A stretch of 64,000 nucleotides of DNA from positions 1-64,000 of the forward strand of contig NW_020846275.1 of assembly GCF_003704095.1 (NCBI RefSeq), given 5' to 3'. The position numbers are program-made. This stretch comes from Pocillopora damicornis (Eukaryota). This document shows positions 3,001 through 64,000 of this stretch, piece after piece (position 1 is the stretch's first letter; every line of letters starts with the position of its first letter).

Positions 3001-6000
3001 CCCAAAGGTTTCCCAGGGGAAGAACAAAGTTAGAAAAAAGGTTGCACTCAGTACTGGCGCAAACACATCAGATGAGATATTACTGAAAAAGCTGGCCGCG
3101 AATACAGTCAGCTCTCATTGTCACTGCCCTTGACCAAACGTGAATTATAGAACAGCACAATTGGCTGAAAGCAAACAAAAGGTAGCATACGTAATAGGCT
3201 TTTGATTTAAGTGACACGCACGCGCAGAAAGTCGCGCCCGCGAGAGACGGAGGTCAGTATTGGGGCACACCACTGAGACAAACGGAGCTCTATTTCGCGA
3301 GTCTCTGGTGGGGGCTTTATTAAAAGGTTATCGAGTAAGTTGCCGAACTTTAACATGAACTCGTGAGTAATTGACTAAAAAATTGCAAGGTTAAACGAAG
3401 TAAGCGTGGTCAGTGAGTTACCGCTCACGACCTAAATCTTCTTCTATTATCAGTTACGTTGAGACTTTAAAGCGACGGGTAACGGCGTTGAACACTACCC
3501 CTCTCTGTATGCGCTAGAATGGGGAGTTACTCAGAATAATTTTCCGTGTGAATGATAACAGCTAGAGCTGAGCCATACACTTTCGGGTGGTAAAGATTTC
3601 ACTTACAAACACTTGGTCAAAAAGAAATATGCGCTATATATATAAAATAATTATGATGCGTATTTCAACAAAATAGTACTCAGACTCTGTGTGGAATAAA
3701 TAGCGATTTAGCTCACGAATGCGACACATGGTCATCATTAGTAACATTGACTTCTGCTTCTGGCTGCACTGAATCATCGCACCTCTGGCTGTCTTCAGAG
3801 TCTCCTGTTTTTGTCTTCTTAAACCGATGTTGGTGTTCAATCTCGAGGCTCTCTCTTTTGGTCAGCGTTGTTCCCATGGTAACCACACTGAAGGGGCGGT
3901 CAGTCAACAGCGTCTCCGTCGCTTTCGACAAGCAGCAAGGATCACCTGAGCCCGCACACGCCGGATCATCAGATCCAACTGACAAACGACTATTCTCTTC
4001 GCTTGCGCATGTGTAGCTACTCAAGCCACCTAAGATTAGAGACAAGGTTTGTTTGGTCACGTCACTGTTGCTAGTCTTCAGTACCTTCTCCACATCACCT
4101 TCTCCAAAACCGTCGTCGCTATTATTTTCGCTTTCAATGCTGTGAGTAATCGGTGACATGCCATCGTTTGCTAATGTCTGGTGGCCATTGTCAATACTTT
4201 TTTTAACTCCTATCACATCCTCGATCACTCCATCCAACTGATCGCCACCAGCTTCGTTATCATCGATTTCACCCACACTGTCGCTGTCACTTTCCTCACT
4301 TGTACTATCTAAGAAGCTCGTCATGTTTCTTGAGGGGGAGGGGAATGGCGAGTCCATCAATTCGGCACCGTAGAAAATATAACGGCAAGGTGGTTTAAAG
4401 ATGAACCGGGGAGAATCTAGAAATGATGAGTTATGAAAATAAACAAAAATAAAAAAACTCAATATTAGAGAGTTTCTACTACTCCCAGTTAATCTATATT
4501 AGGTCAGAAGACAGTCGATCCGGTTCTTTTCACTGCTGCTATGTGTTAAGTTGCATGGATCTTCCCTAGAAGACTACAAAACTATAAAGAGTATATAAAA
4601 TATACCTTCTTCACATATTGTGCCGTTGTTTGTAGAATGTTTATTTTCTTCTCCAGTAGCTGAAGCTCTCGGATGCTCTCGGTTTAACTCGTCACCAGTG
4701 TCACTACAGCCACTACTCTCACCAACAGTCACGTGACCGTCGAGTTGATTGGGTGTACTTACAGCATCTCGCACTTGCGTTTCATCGTGCAATATGTCTT
4801 CATTGTTTGGTACATTCTGCGGTGTACAAAAGTCAACACATCGTCTAAAAAATACGGCCAATAGTCTGATAATCAATCAATGCTTTAGTTTTAACTTGAA
4901 ATCATCGTCAGGGAAAACAGATTAAAGTAAGGTTAGAAACAGAAGGAAGGGGCAACCACTAATAAAACGAAACCGCTTCTGCTGATAAGAACAAACAATA
5001 CAGTTTGTAGCAATCTTGTTCGGCAATTTTCAAAAGGGTTGTCACGTGACGTCTTTTTTTCCTGTTAACTCGATGATTAGGCCGGTATCGACTGGTATGA
5101 ACCACCACAGTCTTTCTATTTTTGTGCTTCATCAAATTTTAGCGGCAAGTTTAACCATAATTTGTCACGTGATCAGCTGGTCTTTGTAGAGCAAAGGCAC
5201 TCCGGGATTGTACTGGGCTTGCTTCATTTTCTTCAGTTATTGCTCAAGAAAACTAAAATCGATCGCAGCTTAGCCACTCTCAATTTCTCGCAAATGAGAC
5301 AGTTGTTTAATCTGAGTTCTTGTTTCCTCCTTGGAATAATACTTGTTGTAATTGGTCTTCCTGGTTACTTTGATTCTGTTTTTGTTGTTGTTGTTGTTGT
5401 TGTTTGTTATTCTTTAGCACGCAAACAAAAACGCCCTAACACCTATCCATTATACTTACCTCAGACGTTTCTTTCTCTCCCGACGAGTGACCCCTCTCTT
5501 CGATACGTTCCTCAACTGAAGTCAGCTTCGCTGGCAAAGATCGCAATCTTTTCACACAGGGAATTTCCAAATCATCTGACAAACCGCTCCAAGTCCCACC
5601 CAGCCGCTGACAAAGCTCGGAGACGATGACGTCACAGTCGCCCAGTAACTCGACATCAAATGTCAGATGTCTAAGCGGCTCTCTGTTGATAAGCACTTGT
5701 GGAACCTCAGGTGGCACGTGACCTATAGTGAGCAAGGTAAACAAAACTACCATTCACTAAGTGATAGAAATTCATACATCATTAAAATTTCTATCGCTTT
5801 AATCCAAGGTTTCATCTCATAGCACAAATGCCACTACTGTGCACTAAAATATACAGTTGATGCGATCCTACTCTCGATAACTATGAAATCAATGGGAAGC
5901 AATACTTCTTTGCACATGAAAAAATCGTCAGCATCAACAACTAAGAGCCGTTACAAGACACATTATGGTTTATCAAATACTTAACTGGGAGCTGTTTAAA

Positions 6001-63000: not shown

Positions 63001-64000
63001 AAGGGATTGGCAGGGATCTCAAATAATTGGGGAGCTGCACTTTAACTCCGCGAGACACGGCGTCCATTTCGGTTTCAAGAATCACGTGAACGACGTACCG
63101 GGTAATTGTTTTGTTGTTCTTTTGTACTCTTTGTTTCTTCGCATCGTTAGCGGCTAGTCAGCAGCTTCTGAAAGTAACGTCTAACACGTCATGTTTGACG
63201 ATGTTTAAAAGCAGATTTTCATCATGGCGGACGAAAACAACTTGCAAATTCGAAACCAAGAAGCTGCTATAACTAGCAAAAGAGCCAGAGTTTTACAATT
63301 TATTGGACTTTTTATTCCTCCTTCAGGGTTTTTTGGACAAACTTTGACTCGTGCTGTGATTGTCATCCTCAGCTGGGCAGTATTATGGTCCATTCTTGGT
63401 GCTGAACTTCTACCAGGAGGCAACATCTTCGGAATTTTCAACGTGATAGTGCTTGCCGCTTTAGGTGGCTTTATGACCAGAAAAATCTCTAAAGGCACCT
63501 TGCCTTCGCTACTAGGGATGCTTGTTGTTGGATTCATTTTACGTAATGTGCCAGGGATCAATGTAGCGCGCCATATTGACAAGAAATGGTCAGCAACTTT
63601 GCGTAGTATGGCGCTTGTTGTAATTCTTACGCGATCAGGTTTGGAACTGGACCCAGGAGCTTTGCGGCGGCTTAAATTCACTGTAATTCGCTTGGCTTTT
63701 TGCCCATGTATTGGAGAGGCCATCACGGTTGCTGTTGTCGGTAAACTGTTATTAAACATGCCTTGGCTTTGGGGGTTTCAACTTGGGTAAGTGTCAGCGA
63801 TATTCGACCGCAAGCGCTAGACGAGCCGCTGCAAATGCCGCTTTTAAGACTAACAGGTTTTTTTTTATATCAAACATTGATTGAAATGAGTGCGGTGCTA
63901 TCCAGGATAAAGGGGCATGTGATCAATTAGAATATGTACACCATGAGAAACATATTTCAATGTTTAAAATTATTCTAGGAGCAGTTTGTTTGATTGAGTT

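What the first reader, a model, noticed from the sequence alone, without database searches (positions are those of the whole stretch)
3713..63786. Ancient microsynteny: SIRT1 - UBE2D - ADAMTS2/3/14 - CISD - SLC9B
Established human gene order: UBE2D3-CISD2-SLC9B1/SLC9B2 are adjacent on 4q24, and CISD1-UBE2D1 are adjacent on 10q21 with SIRT1 (10q21.3) and ADAMTS14 (10q22) nearby. ADAMTS3 is on 4q and ADAMTS2/UBE2D2 on 5q. All five families lie within 60 kb here, suggesting a block retained since the cnidarian-bilaterian ancestor. This also supports the ADAMTS2/3/14 orthology call.
[Added by the scan's program, not by the reader: the finding's places include an assembly gap (unread letters, written N; its length is only estimated) at 16886 to 16963. 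Whether the letters on both sides are continuous or in frame is not known: test that first.]
Basis: partly seen in the sequence, partly recalled or inferred. Interest (0 to 1): 0.65.

Follow-up and report, generated by a model that had tools for sequence, protein, structure and literature searches.

The report
Ancient gene neighbourhood kept in coral
Seven coral genes from five families lie side by side much as their human counterparts do on chromosomes 4 and 10, a clean but fairly ordinary example of a gene neighbourhood that has probably survived since before corals and vertebrates split.

Summary
Between 3.7 and 64 kb a stony-coral window holds SIRT1, two tandem UBE2D genes, one ADAMTS gene, two tandem CISD genes and the first exon of an SLC9B (NHA2-type) gene, with no other Pfam-recognisable gene between them.

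The 78-N gap lies in an intron of the second UBE2D copy. All six of its coding exons are present, in order, on the two sides.

A tree puts the ADAMTS in the ADAMTS2/3/14 clade (100/100 support). The human order UBE2D3-CISD2-SLC9B1-SLC9B2 is documented, and UBE2D1 is treated as adjacent to CISD1. ADAMTS-CISD adjacency recurs in three other corals.

The ancient-block reading is well supported only for the UBE2D-CISD-SLC9B core. In humans SIRT1 and the ADAMTS genes share only a chromosome arm with that core, and gene orientations differ. No non-coral invertebrate could be checked with these tools.

This is one more case of a known kind. It also missed that the coral ADAMTS carries two VHL-beta and two MAM domains, with the hydroxyproline-contact residues conserved. 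That is the more novel item.

The parts
3713..12659 (-). SIRT1 orthologue, at least 11 coding exon ORFs. They lie in 12159-12671, 11231-11560, 10749-11006, 10047-10343, 8982-9131, 8204-8347, 7250-7327, 6561-6692, 6150-6257, 5439-5753 and 3716-4498.
   Evidence: Pfam SIR2 at 10047-10343 (E 9.4e-12) and 8982-9131 (E 5.2e-15), and DUF592 at 10749-11006. PDB: 85.8-91.4 bits to four SIRT1 sequences against 42.2 bits for SIRT3. The GAG, QNID, QCHG/SF, CxxC, FFGE, GSSL and INRE motifs are read in order. ATG and stop.
15179..19056 (-). UBE2D copy B, six coding exons: e1 at about 19056, e2 at about 18800-18740, e3 in 18460-18660, e4 in 18178-18414, e5 in 16192-16368, e6 in 15182-15337.
   Evidence: Pfam UQ_con on three exon ORFs. 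Exon translations. Coding-only similarity to copy A, 75-91% nucleotide identity.
16886..16963 (.). Assembly gap (78 N) inside intron 4 of UBE2D copy B.
   Evidence: It is the only N run. The flanking exons are complementary halves of one gene.
21272..25387 (-). UBE2D copy A, six coding exons in 25217-25399, 25027-25254, 24608-24928 (two exons in this ORF), 22445-22645 and 21275-21478.
   Evidence: Pfam UQ_con. For the last exon, all 60 PDB sequences shown (of 164 matched) are UBE2D2, UBE2D3 or Ubc4/5-type E2s, best 74.7 bits.
27492..56416 (+). ADAMTS2/3/14-clade gene of about 35 coding exons. Domains in order: signal peptide, propeptide, VHL-beta x2, reprolysin catalytic domain (HETGHTLGMEHD), disintegrin-like, TSR1, MAM, Cys-rich, spacer, TSR x3, MAM, PLAC.
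   Evidence: All 1590 residues of database protein P0001 map colinearly, mostly at 90-100% identity. Pfam per exon and on P0001. Tree.
36567..39255 (+). Exons for the two VHL-beta-like domains of the ADAMTS gene: 36567-36686, 37359-37577, 38316-38402 and 39034-39255.
   Evidence: Pfam VHL on 39010-39255 (28.7 bits, cut-off 21) and 37359-38159 (20.9 bits); 57.8 bits on P0001. All 24 PDB sequences matched at E<=1 are human VHL.
58842..60145 (-). CISD copy A (NEET protein), two coding exons in 59786-60205 and 58845-59117.
   Evidence: MitoNEET_N E 1.9e-19. CDGSH readable in exon 2. Exon 1 is 81% identical to Oculina ACROYT_G006740 and 83% to Desmophyllum CISD2.
61932..63067 (-). CISD copy B, two coding exons in 62528-63157 and 61935-62219.
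   Evidence: MitoNEET_N E 5.8e-20. PDB: 12 CISD1 and 3 CISD2 sequences, 15 of 15 matched. Exon 1 is 84% identical to Orbicella and 72-75% to Porites, Acropora and Montipora.
63068..63223 (.). 156-bp head-to-head spacer between the CISD-B and SLC9B start codons. It is a candidate shared promoter.
   Evidence: ATG positions. Promoter function is inferred, not tested.
63224..63786 (+). SLC9B (NHA2-type Na+/H+ antiporter) exon 1. The gene runs off the window.
   Evidence: PDB phmmer E 2.7e-43 and 9.6e-42 to the two SLC9B2 sequences, aligned to chain residues 72-238. GTAAGT donor at 63787.

Best explanation
The window is a stretch of a stony-coral chromosome. It preserves an old linkage group.

The core is the adjacency of UBE2D, CISD (the CISD1/2 type) and SLC9B. 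This most likely already existed in the last common ancestor of cnidarians and bilaterians. After the two vertebrate genome duplications it survives as UBE2D3-CISD2-SLC9B1/2 on human 4q24 and as CISD1-UBE2D1 on 10q21.

SIRT1 and the single pre-duplication ADAMTS2/3/14 gene belonged to the same ancestral chromosomal neighbourhood. In the coral they are immediate neighbours of the core. In humans they remain only on the same chromosomes (ADAMTS3 on 4q, ADAMTS14 and SIRT1 on 10q, ADAMTS2 with UBE2D2 on 5q).

Nothing indicates that the genes work together as a unit. The linkage is best read as a historical relic kept by slow rearrangement. Very short head-to-head spacers may help by making breaks between some pairs costly: 156 bp between CISD-B and SLC9B here, and 84 bp between UBE2D3 and CISD2 in the human table.

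Shown: gene identities, order, the gap position, ADAMTS clade membership, the human 4q24 order and adjacency in other corals. Inferred: the age of the linkage and any regulatory constraint.
For: - Gene content and order: Pfam on 530 of 530 ORFs of at least 45 aa finds only these families between 3.7 and 64 kb. Eight stray hits fall below their curated cut-offs.
- Orthology: SIRT1 91 against 42 bits. SLC9B2 E 2.7e-43. CISD1/2 only, 15 of 15. UBE2D/Ubc4-5 type only among the 60 sequences shown.
- ADAMTS best hits: in a search of residues 425-775 of P0001, 120 of 1175 hits were listed. Twelve are cnidarian homologues and nine are TSR-only proteins. No row among the other 99 carries an ADAMTS number other than 2, 3 or 14.
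- ADAMTS trees: in a careful tree of 67 rows, a 100/100 branch separates a 43-row clade from a 24-row clade. The 43-row clade holds the cnidarian group, vertebrate ADAMTS2/3/14, and 'ADAMTS3-like' proteins of amphioxus, a hemichordate, a tunicate, echinoderms, a priapulid, a bee and a copepod. The 24-row clade holds ADAMTS7, 12, 9, 20, 16, 18 and 15-like. Names come: 7 of 10 looked up on each side carried an ADAMTS name. The quick tree of all 142 rows gives the same split.
- Human order: coordinate table in PMC6071118. Passage in PMC7334875. ADAMTS cytobands in Table 1 of PMC4448532.
- Other corals: ADAMTS and CISD have consecutive accession numbers or locus tags in Oculina patagonica (KAL9984449 and KAL9984448, G006741 and G006740, same 46.5-Mb contig). 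The same holds in Porites evermanni (CAH3014114 and CAH3014115). It also holds on two contigs of Porites harrisoni (KAM7449099/100 with 101, and KAM7439893/4 with 895).
- Chance (my own rough inference): assume about 20,000 human genes and 2-4 members per family. A given family pair is then adjacent by chance with probability under about 1e-3. About 0.005 of the ten family pairs would be expected to be adjacent. Two are, and one of them is adjacent in two paralogous regions.
Against: - No genome outside Scleractinia could be examined, so absence of the linkage from intermediate lineages is not excluded.
- The arrangement is not colinear with human. ADAMTS lies between UBE2D and CISD in the coral. 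CISD faces away from SLC9B here, whereas the human table shows CISD2 and SLC9B1 overlapping, which from recall is tail to tail.
- SIRT1 and ADAMTS14 are megabases from the human core (recalled).
- The human cytobands of SIRT1, UBE2D1, UBE2D2 and CISD1 and all human strand orientations come from my recall, not from a call.
- The chance estimate is post hoc.
- RefSeq names the Oculina and Porites proteins 'ADAMTS 6-like'. No row in my trees carries the name ADAMTS6, 10, 13, 17 or 19, so those clades are not explicitly represented.
Confidence: 0.7

Rival explanations
1. All five families formed one tight, contiguous block in the cnidarian-bilaterian ancestor. Vertebrates later spread SIRT1 and ADAMTS away from the core by intrachromosomal rearrangement.
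For: - The five families are contiguous here with no intervening gene.
- ADAMTS-CISD adjacency holds in four coral species on both sides of the split seen in the tree.
- ADAMTS2, 3 and 14 lie on 5q, 4q and 10q. From recall these are the chromosomes that carry UBE2D2, UBE2D3 and UBE2D1, as expected if ADAMTS and UBE2D were linked before the vertebrate duplications.
Against: - Same-chromosome linkage in humans does not show former adjacency.
- The coral arrangement could equally be a local rearrangement within an ancestral chromosome.
- No outgroup or intermediate genome was checked.
Confidence: 0.35
2. Coincidence or secondary assembly. The genes came together independently in the coral lineage, and the resemblance to human 4q24 and 10q21 is chance.
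For: - Orientation and exact order differ from human.
- The match was noticed after the fact.
- Seven genes in 60 kb may simply be ordinary gene density for a coral (my assumption, not checked by any search), so closeness alone means little.
Against: - Two different family pairs are adjacent in both species.
- UBE2D-CISD adjacency is seen in two human paralogous regions. That already places it before the vertebrate duplications.
- The rough chance expectation is about 0.005 adjacent pairs.
Confidence: 0.08
3. Assembly artefact. The scaffold is wrongly joined at the gap, so SIRT1 and the 3' half of a UBE2D gene come from elsewhere.
For: A gap of estimated length sits at 16886-16963, and continuity across it cannot be read.
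Against: - The two sides carry complementary halves (exons 1-4 and 5-6) of one complete UBE2D gene, in correct order and strand.
- The intron length is like that of copy A.
- The two UBE2D copies differ throughout their introns, so this is not a collapsed or duplicated haplotype.
Confidence: 0.03

Closest known systems
Human 4q24 cluster UBE2D3-CISD2-SLC9B1-SLC9B2
   Same: The same three families are immediate neighbours. One pair has a very short spacer: 84 bp between the UBE2D3 and CISD2 annotations in the table of PMC6071118, and 156 bp between the CISD-B and SLC9B start codons here. SLC9B lies at the outer end next to CISD in both.
   Different: The coral has ADAMTS between UBE2D and CISD. 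It has two UBE2D and two CISD copies, where humans have two SLC9B copies. The short head-to-head pair is CISD/SLC9B in the coral, not UBE2D/CISD. Human strand orientations are recalled.
Human 10q21 pair CISD1-UBE2D1, with SIRT1 and ADAMTS14 further along 10q
   Same: CISD and UBE2D are neighbours. From recall they are on the same strand with CISD upstream, which matches the coral when read on the minus strand. SIRT1 and an ADAMTS2/3/14 member are on the same arm (ADAMTS14 at 10q22).
   Different: From recall, SIRT1 and ADAMTS14 are roughly 9-12 Mb away in humans but 2.5 kb and 2.1 kb away here. No SLC9B gene is there.
Ancient metazoan microsyntenic pairs and blocks (Irimia et al. 2012, PMC3514665; Robert et al. 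2022, PMC8851819)
   Same: Unrelated genes kept adjacent between cnidarians and vertebrates. This is the known kind to which the finding belongs.
   Different: None of CISD, UBE2D, NHEDC, SLC9B, SIRT1 or ADAMTS occurs in the main text of either paper. Their block lists are in supplements that I could not open, so this block may or may not be listed. No conserved non-coding element or regulatory link has been shown here.
ADAMTS2/3/14 procollagen N-propeptidases
   Same: Tree placement. An intact HExxHxxGxxHD zinc site. One central plus three C-terminal TSRs and a PLAC module. PLAC is listed for ADAMTS2, 3 and 14 in PMC4448532.
   Different: Two VHL-beta domains lie between the propeptide and the catalytic domain. 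One MAM domain lies between TSR1 and the Cys-rich region, and a second lies before PLAC. No R-x-K/R-R site lies just upstream of the catalytic domain; the only sites in P0001 are at residues 76-81 and 1483-1486. Substrate is unknown.
VHL tumour suppressor, beta domain
   Same: Pfam VHL, 57.8 bits on P0001. The residues aligned to the hydroxyproline contacts Ser111, His115 and Trp117 are Thr, His and Trp in 21 of 21 cnidarian domains. Residue roles are from passages of PMC9528729.
   Different: The domain is embedded in a secreted protease. Pfam reports no VHL C-terminal (alpha) domain on P0001 at E<=0.001. Tyr98 is Phe in 21 of 21. Trp88 is Tyr (14), Phe (4), Met (2) or Leu (1).

Membership tests
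Ancient metazoan microsyntenic block (criteria as I recall them from Irimia et al. 2012) | The linked genes are orthologous between the compared lineages and are not paralogues of each other. | tested here: met
   Five unrelated families. Orthology from best PDB matches and the ADAMTS tree.
Ancient metazoan microsyntenic block (criteria as I recall them from Irimia et al. 2012) | The genes are adjacent, or nearly so, in both distant lineages. | tested here: inconclusive
   Met for UBE2D-CISD-SLC9B, with one intervening gene in the coral. Not met for SIRT1 and ADAMTS, which in humans share only the chromosome arm (for ADAMTS; SIRT1 position recalled).
Ancient metazoan microsyntenic block (criteria as I recall them from Irimia et al. 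2012) | The linkage is present in several independent phyla. | not testable with these tools
   No animal genome collection was available. Only ADAMTS-CISD adjacency in Oculina and two Porites species could be checked.
SIRT1 (class I sirtuin) | A SIR2 catalytic core with the catalytic His and a zinc Cys4, and SIRT1 as the closest sirtuin. | tested here: met
   Pfam SIR2 on two exons. QCHG|SF, CTNC and CPKC motifs read. 91.4 bits to SIRT1 against 42.2 to SIRT3. The spliced protein was not assembled.
UBE2D (Ubc4/5-type E2) | A UBC core with HPN and the active-site Cys, no N- or C-terminal extension, and UBE2D as the closest E2. | tested here: met
   HPNINSNG(S/N)ICLD in exon 5 of both copies. 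Exon 1 starts MALKRINK. The reading frame ends 1-2 residues after the core. All 60 PDB rows shown are UBE2D or Ubc4/5 type.
CISD1/CISD2 (membrane-anchored NEET proteins) | An N-terminal MitoNEET_N anchor followed by one CDGSH 2Fe-2S motif. | tested here: met
   MitoNEET_N E about 1e-19 to 1e-20 in both copies. CRCW...CDGSH is readable. Only CISD1 and CISD2 are matched in PDB. Which human paralogue each copy resembles is not resolved. The two copies look like a coral-lineage duplication.
SLC9B / NHA2 antiporters | The NHA2-type transmembrane core. From recall, the ion-binding Asp pair lies later in the protein. | tested here: inconclusive
   Exon 1 aligns to SLC9B2 chain residues 72-238 at E 2.7e-43, and only SLC9B2 sequences are matched. 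The rest of the gene, including the Asp pair, lies beyond the window.
ADAMTS2/3/14 clade | Placement inside the clade in a tree that includes other ADAMTS clades. | tested here: met
   The 100/100 split and SH-aLRT 100 in the 142-row tree. Names. Caveat: no row is named ADAMTS6, 10, 13, 17 or 19.
ADAMTS2/3/14 clade | Domain order: reprolysin, disintegrin-like, TSR, Cys-rich, spacer, three TSRs, PLAC. | tested here: met
   All are present in order, but interrupted by two MAM domains and preceded by two VHL-beta domains.
ADAMTS2/3/14 clade | Procollagen N-propeptidase activity. | not testable with these tools
   This needs enzyme assays. Only the intact zinc-binding motif was seen.
VHL protein (E3 substrate receptor) | A beta domain together with an alpha domain that binds Elongin C. 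| tested here: not met
   Only the beta domain is found, twice, and it lies inside a secreted protease. The protein contains a VHL-beta-like domain but is not a VHL protein.

The most novel reading that the evidence does not exclude
Two readings go beyond 'one more conserved gene pair'.

1. The whole SIRT1-UBE2D-ADAMTS-CISD-SLC9B run is an intact piece of the ancestral eumetazoan chromosome. Vertebrates have since stretched it over 4q, 5q and 10q.

2. The bolder reading concerns the ADAMTS gene. Anthozoans have fitted their single procollagen-N-proteinase-type ADAMTS with VHL-beta domains that read hydroxyproline. The fold known from intracellular oxygen sensing would then serve outside the cell as a reader of hydroxylated collagen that docks the protease on its substrate.

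The domains are kept in every anthozoan homologue seen: two in stony corals and sea anemones, one in octocorals. The Thr, His and Trp equivalents of the VHL hydroxyproline contacts are invariant.
Probability: 0.3. Interest if true: 0.65.

Novelty: new member of a known kind. Interest (0 to 1): 0.35.

Why it matters
If the UBE2D-CISD-SLC9B adjacency really predates the cnidarian-bilaterian split, three things follow. It adds a well-defined block to the catalogue of ancient microsynteny. It gives an anchor for assigning human 4q, 5q and 10q segments to one ancestral region. It also offers a test case for whether very short head-to-head spacers protect gene pairs from being separated.

Positional evidence also backs the view that CISD1 and CISD2, UBE2D1-3 and ADAMTS2/3/14 are products of the vertebrate genome duplications.

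The side observation may matter more. An ADAMTS2/3/14-type protease with VHL-beta and MAM domains, conserved across Anthozoa, suggests a possible extracellular use of the VHL hydroxyproline pocket. It also gives a handle on collagen processing in animals that build skeleton and mesoglea.

Tried and rejected
- Pfam on SLC9B exon 1 gave no family at E<=0.01. The PDB sequence search settled its identity.
- Published mentions of the block. No paper held 'synteny' together with two of CISD2, UBE2D3 and SLC9B1; of the 8 papers listed, none contains 'synteny'. In a search for UBE2D, CISD, synteny, paralogon and microsynteny, 10 of 21 papers were listed, and all 10 have no occurrence of UBE2D or CISD.
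- None of the gene names occurs in the main texts of PMC3514665, PMC8851819 or PMC8040251. The NEET phylogeny paper PMC5311916 has no occurrence of synteny, cnidaria, Nematostella, tandem or chromosome. Supplements are closed, so listing of the block there stays unchecked.
- ADAMTS with VHL in print: no paper holds both 'ADAMTS' and 'VHL beta domain'. The 12 papers are irrelevant by title. In the sea-anemone matrisome paper the main text has one ADAMTS mention and no VHL.
- The protein atlas on the VHL region scored 0.76-0.77, below the level the tool treats as more than a lead. The top named clusters are VHL-beta.
- ARAGORN found no tRNA where Rfam gives a weak tRNA hit.
- The Rfam gathering scan found nothing else.
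- I considered dating the CISD duplication with a tree and dropped it. Without a non-coral outgroup, three groups cannot be rooted.
- I did not predict structures. The only window-own pieces of the VHL domains are single exons covering about two thirds of a domain, and a partial model would add little to Pfam.
- I did not use complex prediction. No binding claim is made.
Every search with window sequence was exon by exon. Full-length comparisons used database proteins instead.

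
Full report
Scope and limits. The window is intron-rich eukaryotic DNA of about 38% G+C. Full-length comparisons used database proteins that the searches returned. Gene order in other phyla could therefore not be examined directly.

The gap first. The only run of N is 16886-16963, 78 letters. It lies inside a gene, but in an intron. The minus strand carries a complete UBE2D gene (copy B):
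- Exon 1 (MALKRINK) lies at about 19056.
- Exon 2 lies at about 18800-18740.
- Exons 3 and 4 lie in 18460-18660 and 18178-18414, to the right of the gap.
- Exons 5 and 6 lie in 16192-16368 and 15182-15337, to its left.

The residues at the exon 4/5 junction (…KPPKV | [10 protein letters not shown]…) are the same as in the neighbouring copy A. The intron holding the gap spans about 1.96 kb, against about 1.99 kb in copy A (coordinates). No coding exon is missing, and no claim here rests on the unread letters. The two flanks are complementary halves of one gene in the right order and strand, which argues that the scaffold join is correct. The letters alone cannot prove continuity.

What is in the window. 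I scanned all 530 stop-to-stop ORFs of at least 45 aa against Pfam.
- SIRT1, minus strand, ATG 12659 to stop 3713: at least 11 exon ORFs carrying the sirtuin motifs in order.
- UBE2D copy B, 19056-15179, and copy A, 25387-21272, both on the minus strand with six coding exons each.
- One ADAMTS gene, plus strand, 27492-56416.
- CISD copy A, 60145-58842, and copy B, 63067-61932, both on the minus strand with two exons each.
- SLC9B exon 1, plus strand, 63224-63786, followed by a GTAAGT donor. The gene runs off the window.

The tandem copies are real and not recent. The UBE2D copies A and B resemble each other only in exons, at 75-91% nucleotide identity. The CISD copies A and B do so at 68-73%.

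Identity of each gene.
- SIRT1: the exon at 10047-10343 scores 85.8-91.4 bits to four SIRT1 sequences in the PDB set, against 42.2 bits for SIRT3, the next best.
- UBE2D: the last exon of copy A matches 164 sequences. All 60 shown are UBE2D2, UBE2D3 or Ubc4/5-type enzymes. Both copies start MALKRINK and carry HPN…C.
- CISD: exon 1 of copy B matches 15 sequences, 12 of CISD1 and 3 of CISD2. Both copies have the MitoNEET_N anchor and a readable CDGSH motif.
- SLC9B: exon 1 gave no Pfam family at E<=0.01. It matches only the two SLC9B2 (NHA2) sequences, at E 2.7e-43 and 9.6e-42.

The ADAMTS gene. A search with the VHL-like exon at 39010-39255 returned P0001, a 1590-residue protein from a 5464-base contig. 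All 1590 of its residues map colinearly on the plus strand from 27492 to 56413, in about 35 exons, mostly at 90-100% identity. One gene therefore encodes, in order:
- a signal peptide and propeptide,
- two VHL-beta domains,
- the reprolysin catalytic domain with an intact HETGHTLGMEHD site,
- a disintegrin-like module and TSR1,
- a MAM domain,
- the Cys-rich region and spacer,
- three TSRs,
- a second MAM domain,
- PLAC.

Best hits for the ADAMTS. With residues 425-775 of P0001, 1175 proteins scored E<=1e-10 among 2357 candidates, and 120 were listed.
- Twelve are cnidarian homologues, all with VHL and MAM: Oculina 87%, Porites 83%, Acropora 78%, Exaiptasia 56%, Actinostola 53%, and octocorals 47-48%.
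- Nine are TSR-only proteins.
- The other 99 are amphioxus, a hemichordate and vertebrates. No row among them carries an ADAMTS number other than 2, 3 or 14.

Naming conflict. RefSeq names the Oculina and Porites proteins 'ADAMTS 6-like', so I built trees. I gathered 150 representatives with the amphioxus protein P0023 as query.

Quick tree. A quick tree of 142 rows gave a clade with SH-aLRT 100. It holds the cnidarian group together with ADAMTS2/3/14.

Careful tree. For the careful tree I kept 67 of the 142 rows to fit the time limit. It used LG+C20+F+G4, ultrafast bootstrap and SH-aLRT. A 100/100 branch separates two clades.
- The 43-row clade holds the cnidarians (95/89), vertebrate ADAMTS2/3/14, and 'ADAMTS3-like' proteins of amphioxus, Glandiceps, Styela, Antedon, Diadema, Priapulus, a bee and a copepod.
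- The 24-row clade holds ADAMTS7, 12/7-like, 9, 20-like, 16, 18 and 15-like.
- The names come from look-ups of ten representatives on each side. Seven of ten carried an ADAMTS name on each side.

The orthology call is therefore supported independently of synteny. The caveat is that no row is named ADAMTS6, 10, 13, 17 or 19. Within the cnidarians the tree follows taxonomy and pairs the window-like protein with Oculina. The window therefore comes from a stony coral.

Human gene order. A coordinate table in PMC6071118 lists, in order on chromosome 4, MANBA, UBE2D3, CISD2, SLC9B1 (NHEDC1), SLC9B2 (NHEDC2), BDH2 and CENPE. There are 84 bp between the UBE2D3 and CISD2 annotations, and CISD2 overlaps SLC9B1 (I saw that passage). 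A passage of PMC7334875 treats IPMK and UBE2D1 as the genes adjacent to CISD1. Table 1 of PMC4448532 gives ADAMTS2 at 5q35, ADAMTS3 at 4q21 and ADAMTS14 at 10q22 (passages). The bands of SIRT1 (10q21.3), CISD1/UBE2D1 (10q21) and UBE2D2 (5q31), the megabase distances on 10q and all human strand orientations are from my recall.

Other corals. The CISD search and the cluster look-up show that the ADAMTS and a CISD gene have consecutive identifiers:
- Oculina patagonica: KAL9984449 (ACROYT_G006741) and KAL9984448 (G006740), same 46.5-Mb contig.
- Porites evermanni: CAH3014114 and CAH3014115.
- Porites harrisoni, two contigs: KAM7449099/100 with 7449101, and KAM7439893/4 with 7439895.

Consecutive numbering in such submissions usually follows gene order, so this is indirect evidence of adjacency. 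From recall, Oculina and Porites lie on the two sides of the deepest stony-coral split. The tree groups them accordingly.

The two CISD copies look like a coral-lineage duplication. Copy A is closest to the Oculina and Desmophyllum proteins (81-83% in exon 1). Copy B is closest to Orbicella (84%) and to Porites, Acropora and Montipora (72-75%, against 60-65% to copy A).

More than chance? This is my own rough reasoning, not a computation on genomes. Assume about 20,000 human genes and two to four members per family. A given pair of families then has immediate neighbours by chance with a probability below about one in a thousand. For the ten family pairs in the window, about 0.005 adjacent pairs are expected. 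Two pairs are adjacent (UBE2D-CISD and CISD-SLC9B), and the first is adjacent in two paralogous human regions. That already dates it to before the vertebrate genome duplications. The match of ADAMTS2/3/14 to the chromosomes carrying UBE2D2/3/1 fits a linkage of those two families before the duplications, but it is only same-chromosome evidence.

What does not fit a simple frozen block. Reading left to right, the coral order is SIRT1(-), UBE2D-B(-), UBE2D-A(-), ADAMTS(+), CISD-A(-), CISD-B(-), SLC9B(+). ADAMTS separates UBE2D from CISD. Two pairs are head to head: CISD-B with SLC9B (156 bp between start codons) and UBE2D-A with ADAMTS (2.1 kb). In humans it is UBE2D3 and CISD2 that lie 84 bp apart. 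So order is conserved for the core, but orientation is not. SIRT1 and ADAMTS are close neighbours only in the coral.

Interpretation. I commit to the following. The UBE2D-CISD-SLC9B adjacency is ancestral to cnidarians and bilaterians (confidence about 0.7). SIRT1 and the ADAMTS2/3/14 ancestor were on the same ancestral chromosome region. Whether they were immediate neighbours is open (about 0.35). Nothing suggests that the genes function as a unit. The retention is most simply a relic, possibly reinforced by short shared promoter regions. Chance or secondary assembly (about 0.08) and a mis-join at the gap (about 0.03) are unlikely, for the reasons above.

Is it known? No paper in the searchable library combines these gene names with synteny terms. 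The main texts of two metazoan microsynteny surveys and of a paralogon analysis do not mention the genes. The NEET phylogeny paper does not discuss synteny or cnidarians. The block lists of the surveys are in supplements I could not open, so I cannot say the pair is unlisted. The phenomenon itself is well known, and I rate this as a new member of a known kind with modest interest.

Side finding: the anthozoan ADAMTS. Every cnidarian homologue listed carries VHL and MAM domains, and no bilaterian one does. Stony corals and sea anemones have two VHL-beta domains, and the three octocoral-type proteins have one.

The hydroxyproline pocket. The exon at 39010-39255 matches only human VHL in the PDB set, 24 of 24 sequences at E<=1, best E 0.0028. 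That alignment places Thr, His and Trp opposite Ser111, His115 and Trp117. Those three residues are invariant in 21 of 21 domains from 12 proteins. Tyr98 is Phe in 21 of 21. Trp88 is Tyr in 14, Phe in 4, Met in 2 and Leu in 1. Passages of PMC9528729 state that the hydroxyproline site of VHL is formed by Trp88, Tyr98, His110, Ser111, His115 and Trp117. They also state that the hydroxyl group is held by Ser111 and His115.

Link to collagen. VHL binding to hydroxylated collagen IV is in print. I saw only the titles of Grosfeld 2007 and Kurban 2008, in a reference list. I therefore propose, as an inference, that these domains dock the protease on hydroxyproline-rich collagen. The only R-x-K/R-R sites in P0001 are at residues 76-81 and 1483-1486, and none lies just before the catalytic domain. 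If the first site is the cleavage site, the VHL domains would stay on the mature enzyme. No paper in the library holds both 'ADAMTS' and 'VHL beta domain'.

Noticed in passing
window 27492-56416 (+); VHL exons 36567-39255; MAM exons 46227-49269 and 54449-55661: The ADAMTS2/3/14-clade gene encodes two VHL-beta and two MAM domains. The same architecture is found in all 12 cnidarian homologues listed and in none of the bilaterian ones. The Thr, His and Trp equivalents of the VHL hydroxyproline contacts are invariant in 21 of 21 domains. No paper was found that joins 'ADAMTS' with 'VHL beta domain'.
   Followed up: partly
P0017, P0020 and P0021 compared with P0001, P0004-P0009, P0012 and P0014: The three octocoral-type homologues have one VHL-beta domain. 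Stony corals and sea anemones have two, so the domain was duplicated, or one copy was lost, within Anthozoa.
   Followed up: no
P0001 residues 76-81 and 1483-1486; window exon 31777-31938: The only furin-type R-x-K/R-R sites are early in the propeptide (HRRRRRS) and in the second MAM domain. None lies directly upstream of the catalytic domain, where ADAMTS proteases are usually cleaved (that usual position is from recall).
   Followed up: no
window 15179-25387 (-) and 58842-63067 (-): UBE2D and CISD are each present as old tandem duplicates, with similarity confined to exons. CISD-A groups by identity with Oculina and Desmophyllum. CISD-B groups with Orbicella and the Porites, Acropora and Montipora proteins. 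The timing of the duplication is unresolved.
   Followed up: partly
window 63068-63223: The start codons of CISD-B and SLC9B are head to head and only 156 bp apart, which suggests a shared bidirectional promoter. In the human table the 84-bp spacing is between UBE2D3 and CISD2 instead.
   Followed up: no
window 496-1641 (+): The last exon of a TRIM-NHL-type gene (Filamin plus NHL repeats; best PDB matches are TRIM71, TRIM3 and TRIM2) lies just outside the finding, next to SIRT1. From recall, TRIM2 is on human 4q, which may or may not be meaningful.
   Followed up: partly
window 57941-58013 (+): A weak Rfam tRNA match (31.7 bits, gathering score 29) lies between the 3' ends of ADAMTS and CISD-A. 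ARAGORN finds no tRNA there. It may be a tRNA-derived repeat or a pseudogene.
   Followed up: partly
P0173, P0175, P0178 and P0182-P0185: RefSeq names the Oculina and Porites orthologues 'ADAMTS 6-like' (one isoform '2-like'), while other sources name homologues 2, 3 or 14. The tree supports 2/3/14, so the '6-like' names look like naming artefacts.
   Followed up: yes
window 25713-25771 and 28963-29067: Two short tandem repeats. One has an 18-bp G-rich unit (3.1 copies), upstream of UBE2D-A in the spacer shared with ADAMTS. The other has a 46-bp unit (2.3 copies), inside the long intron that follows the ADAMTS micro-exon at about 27723-27755 (the gene's second intron).
   Followed up: no
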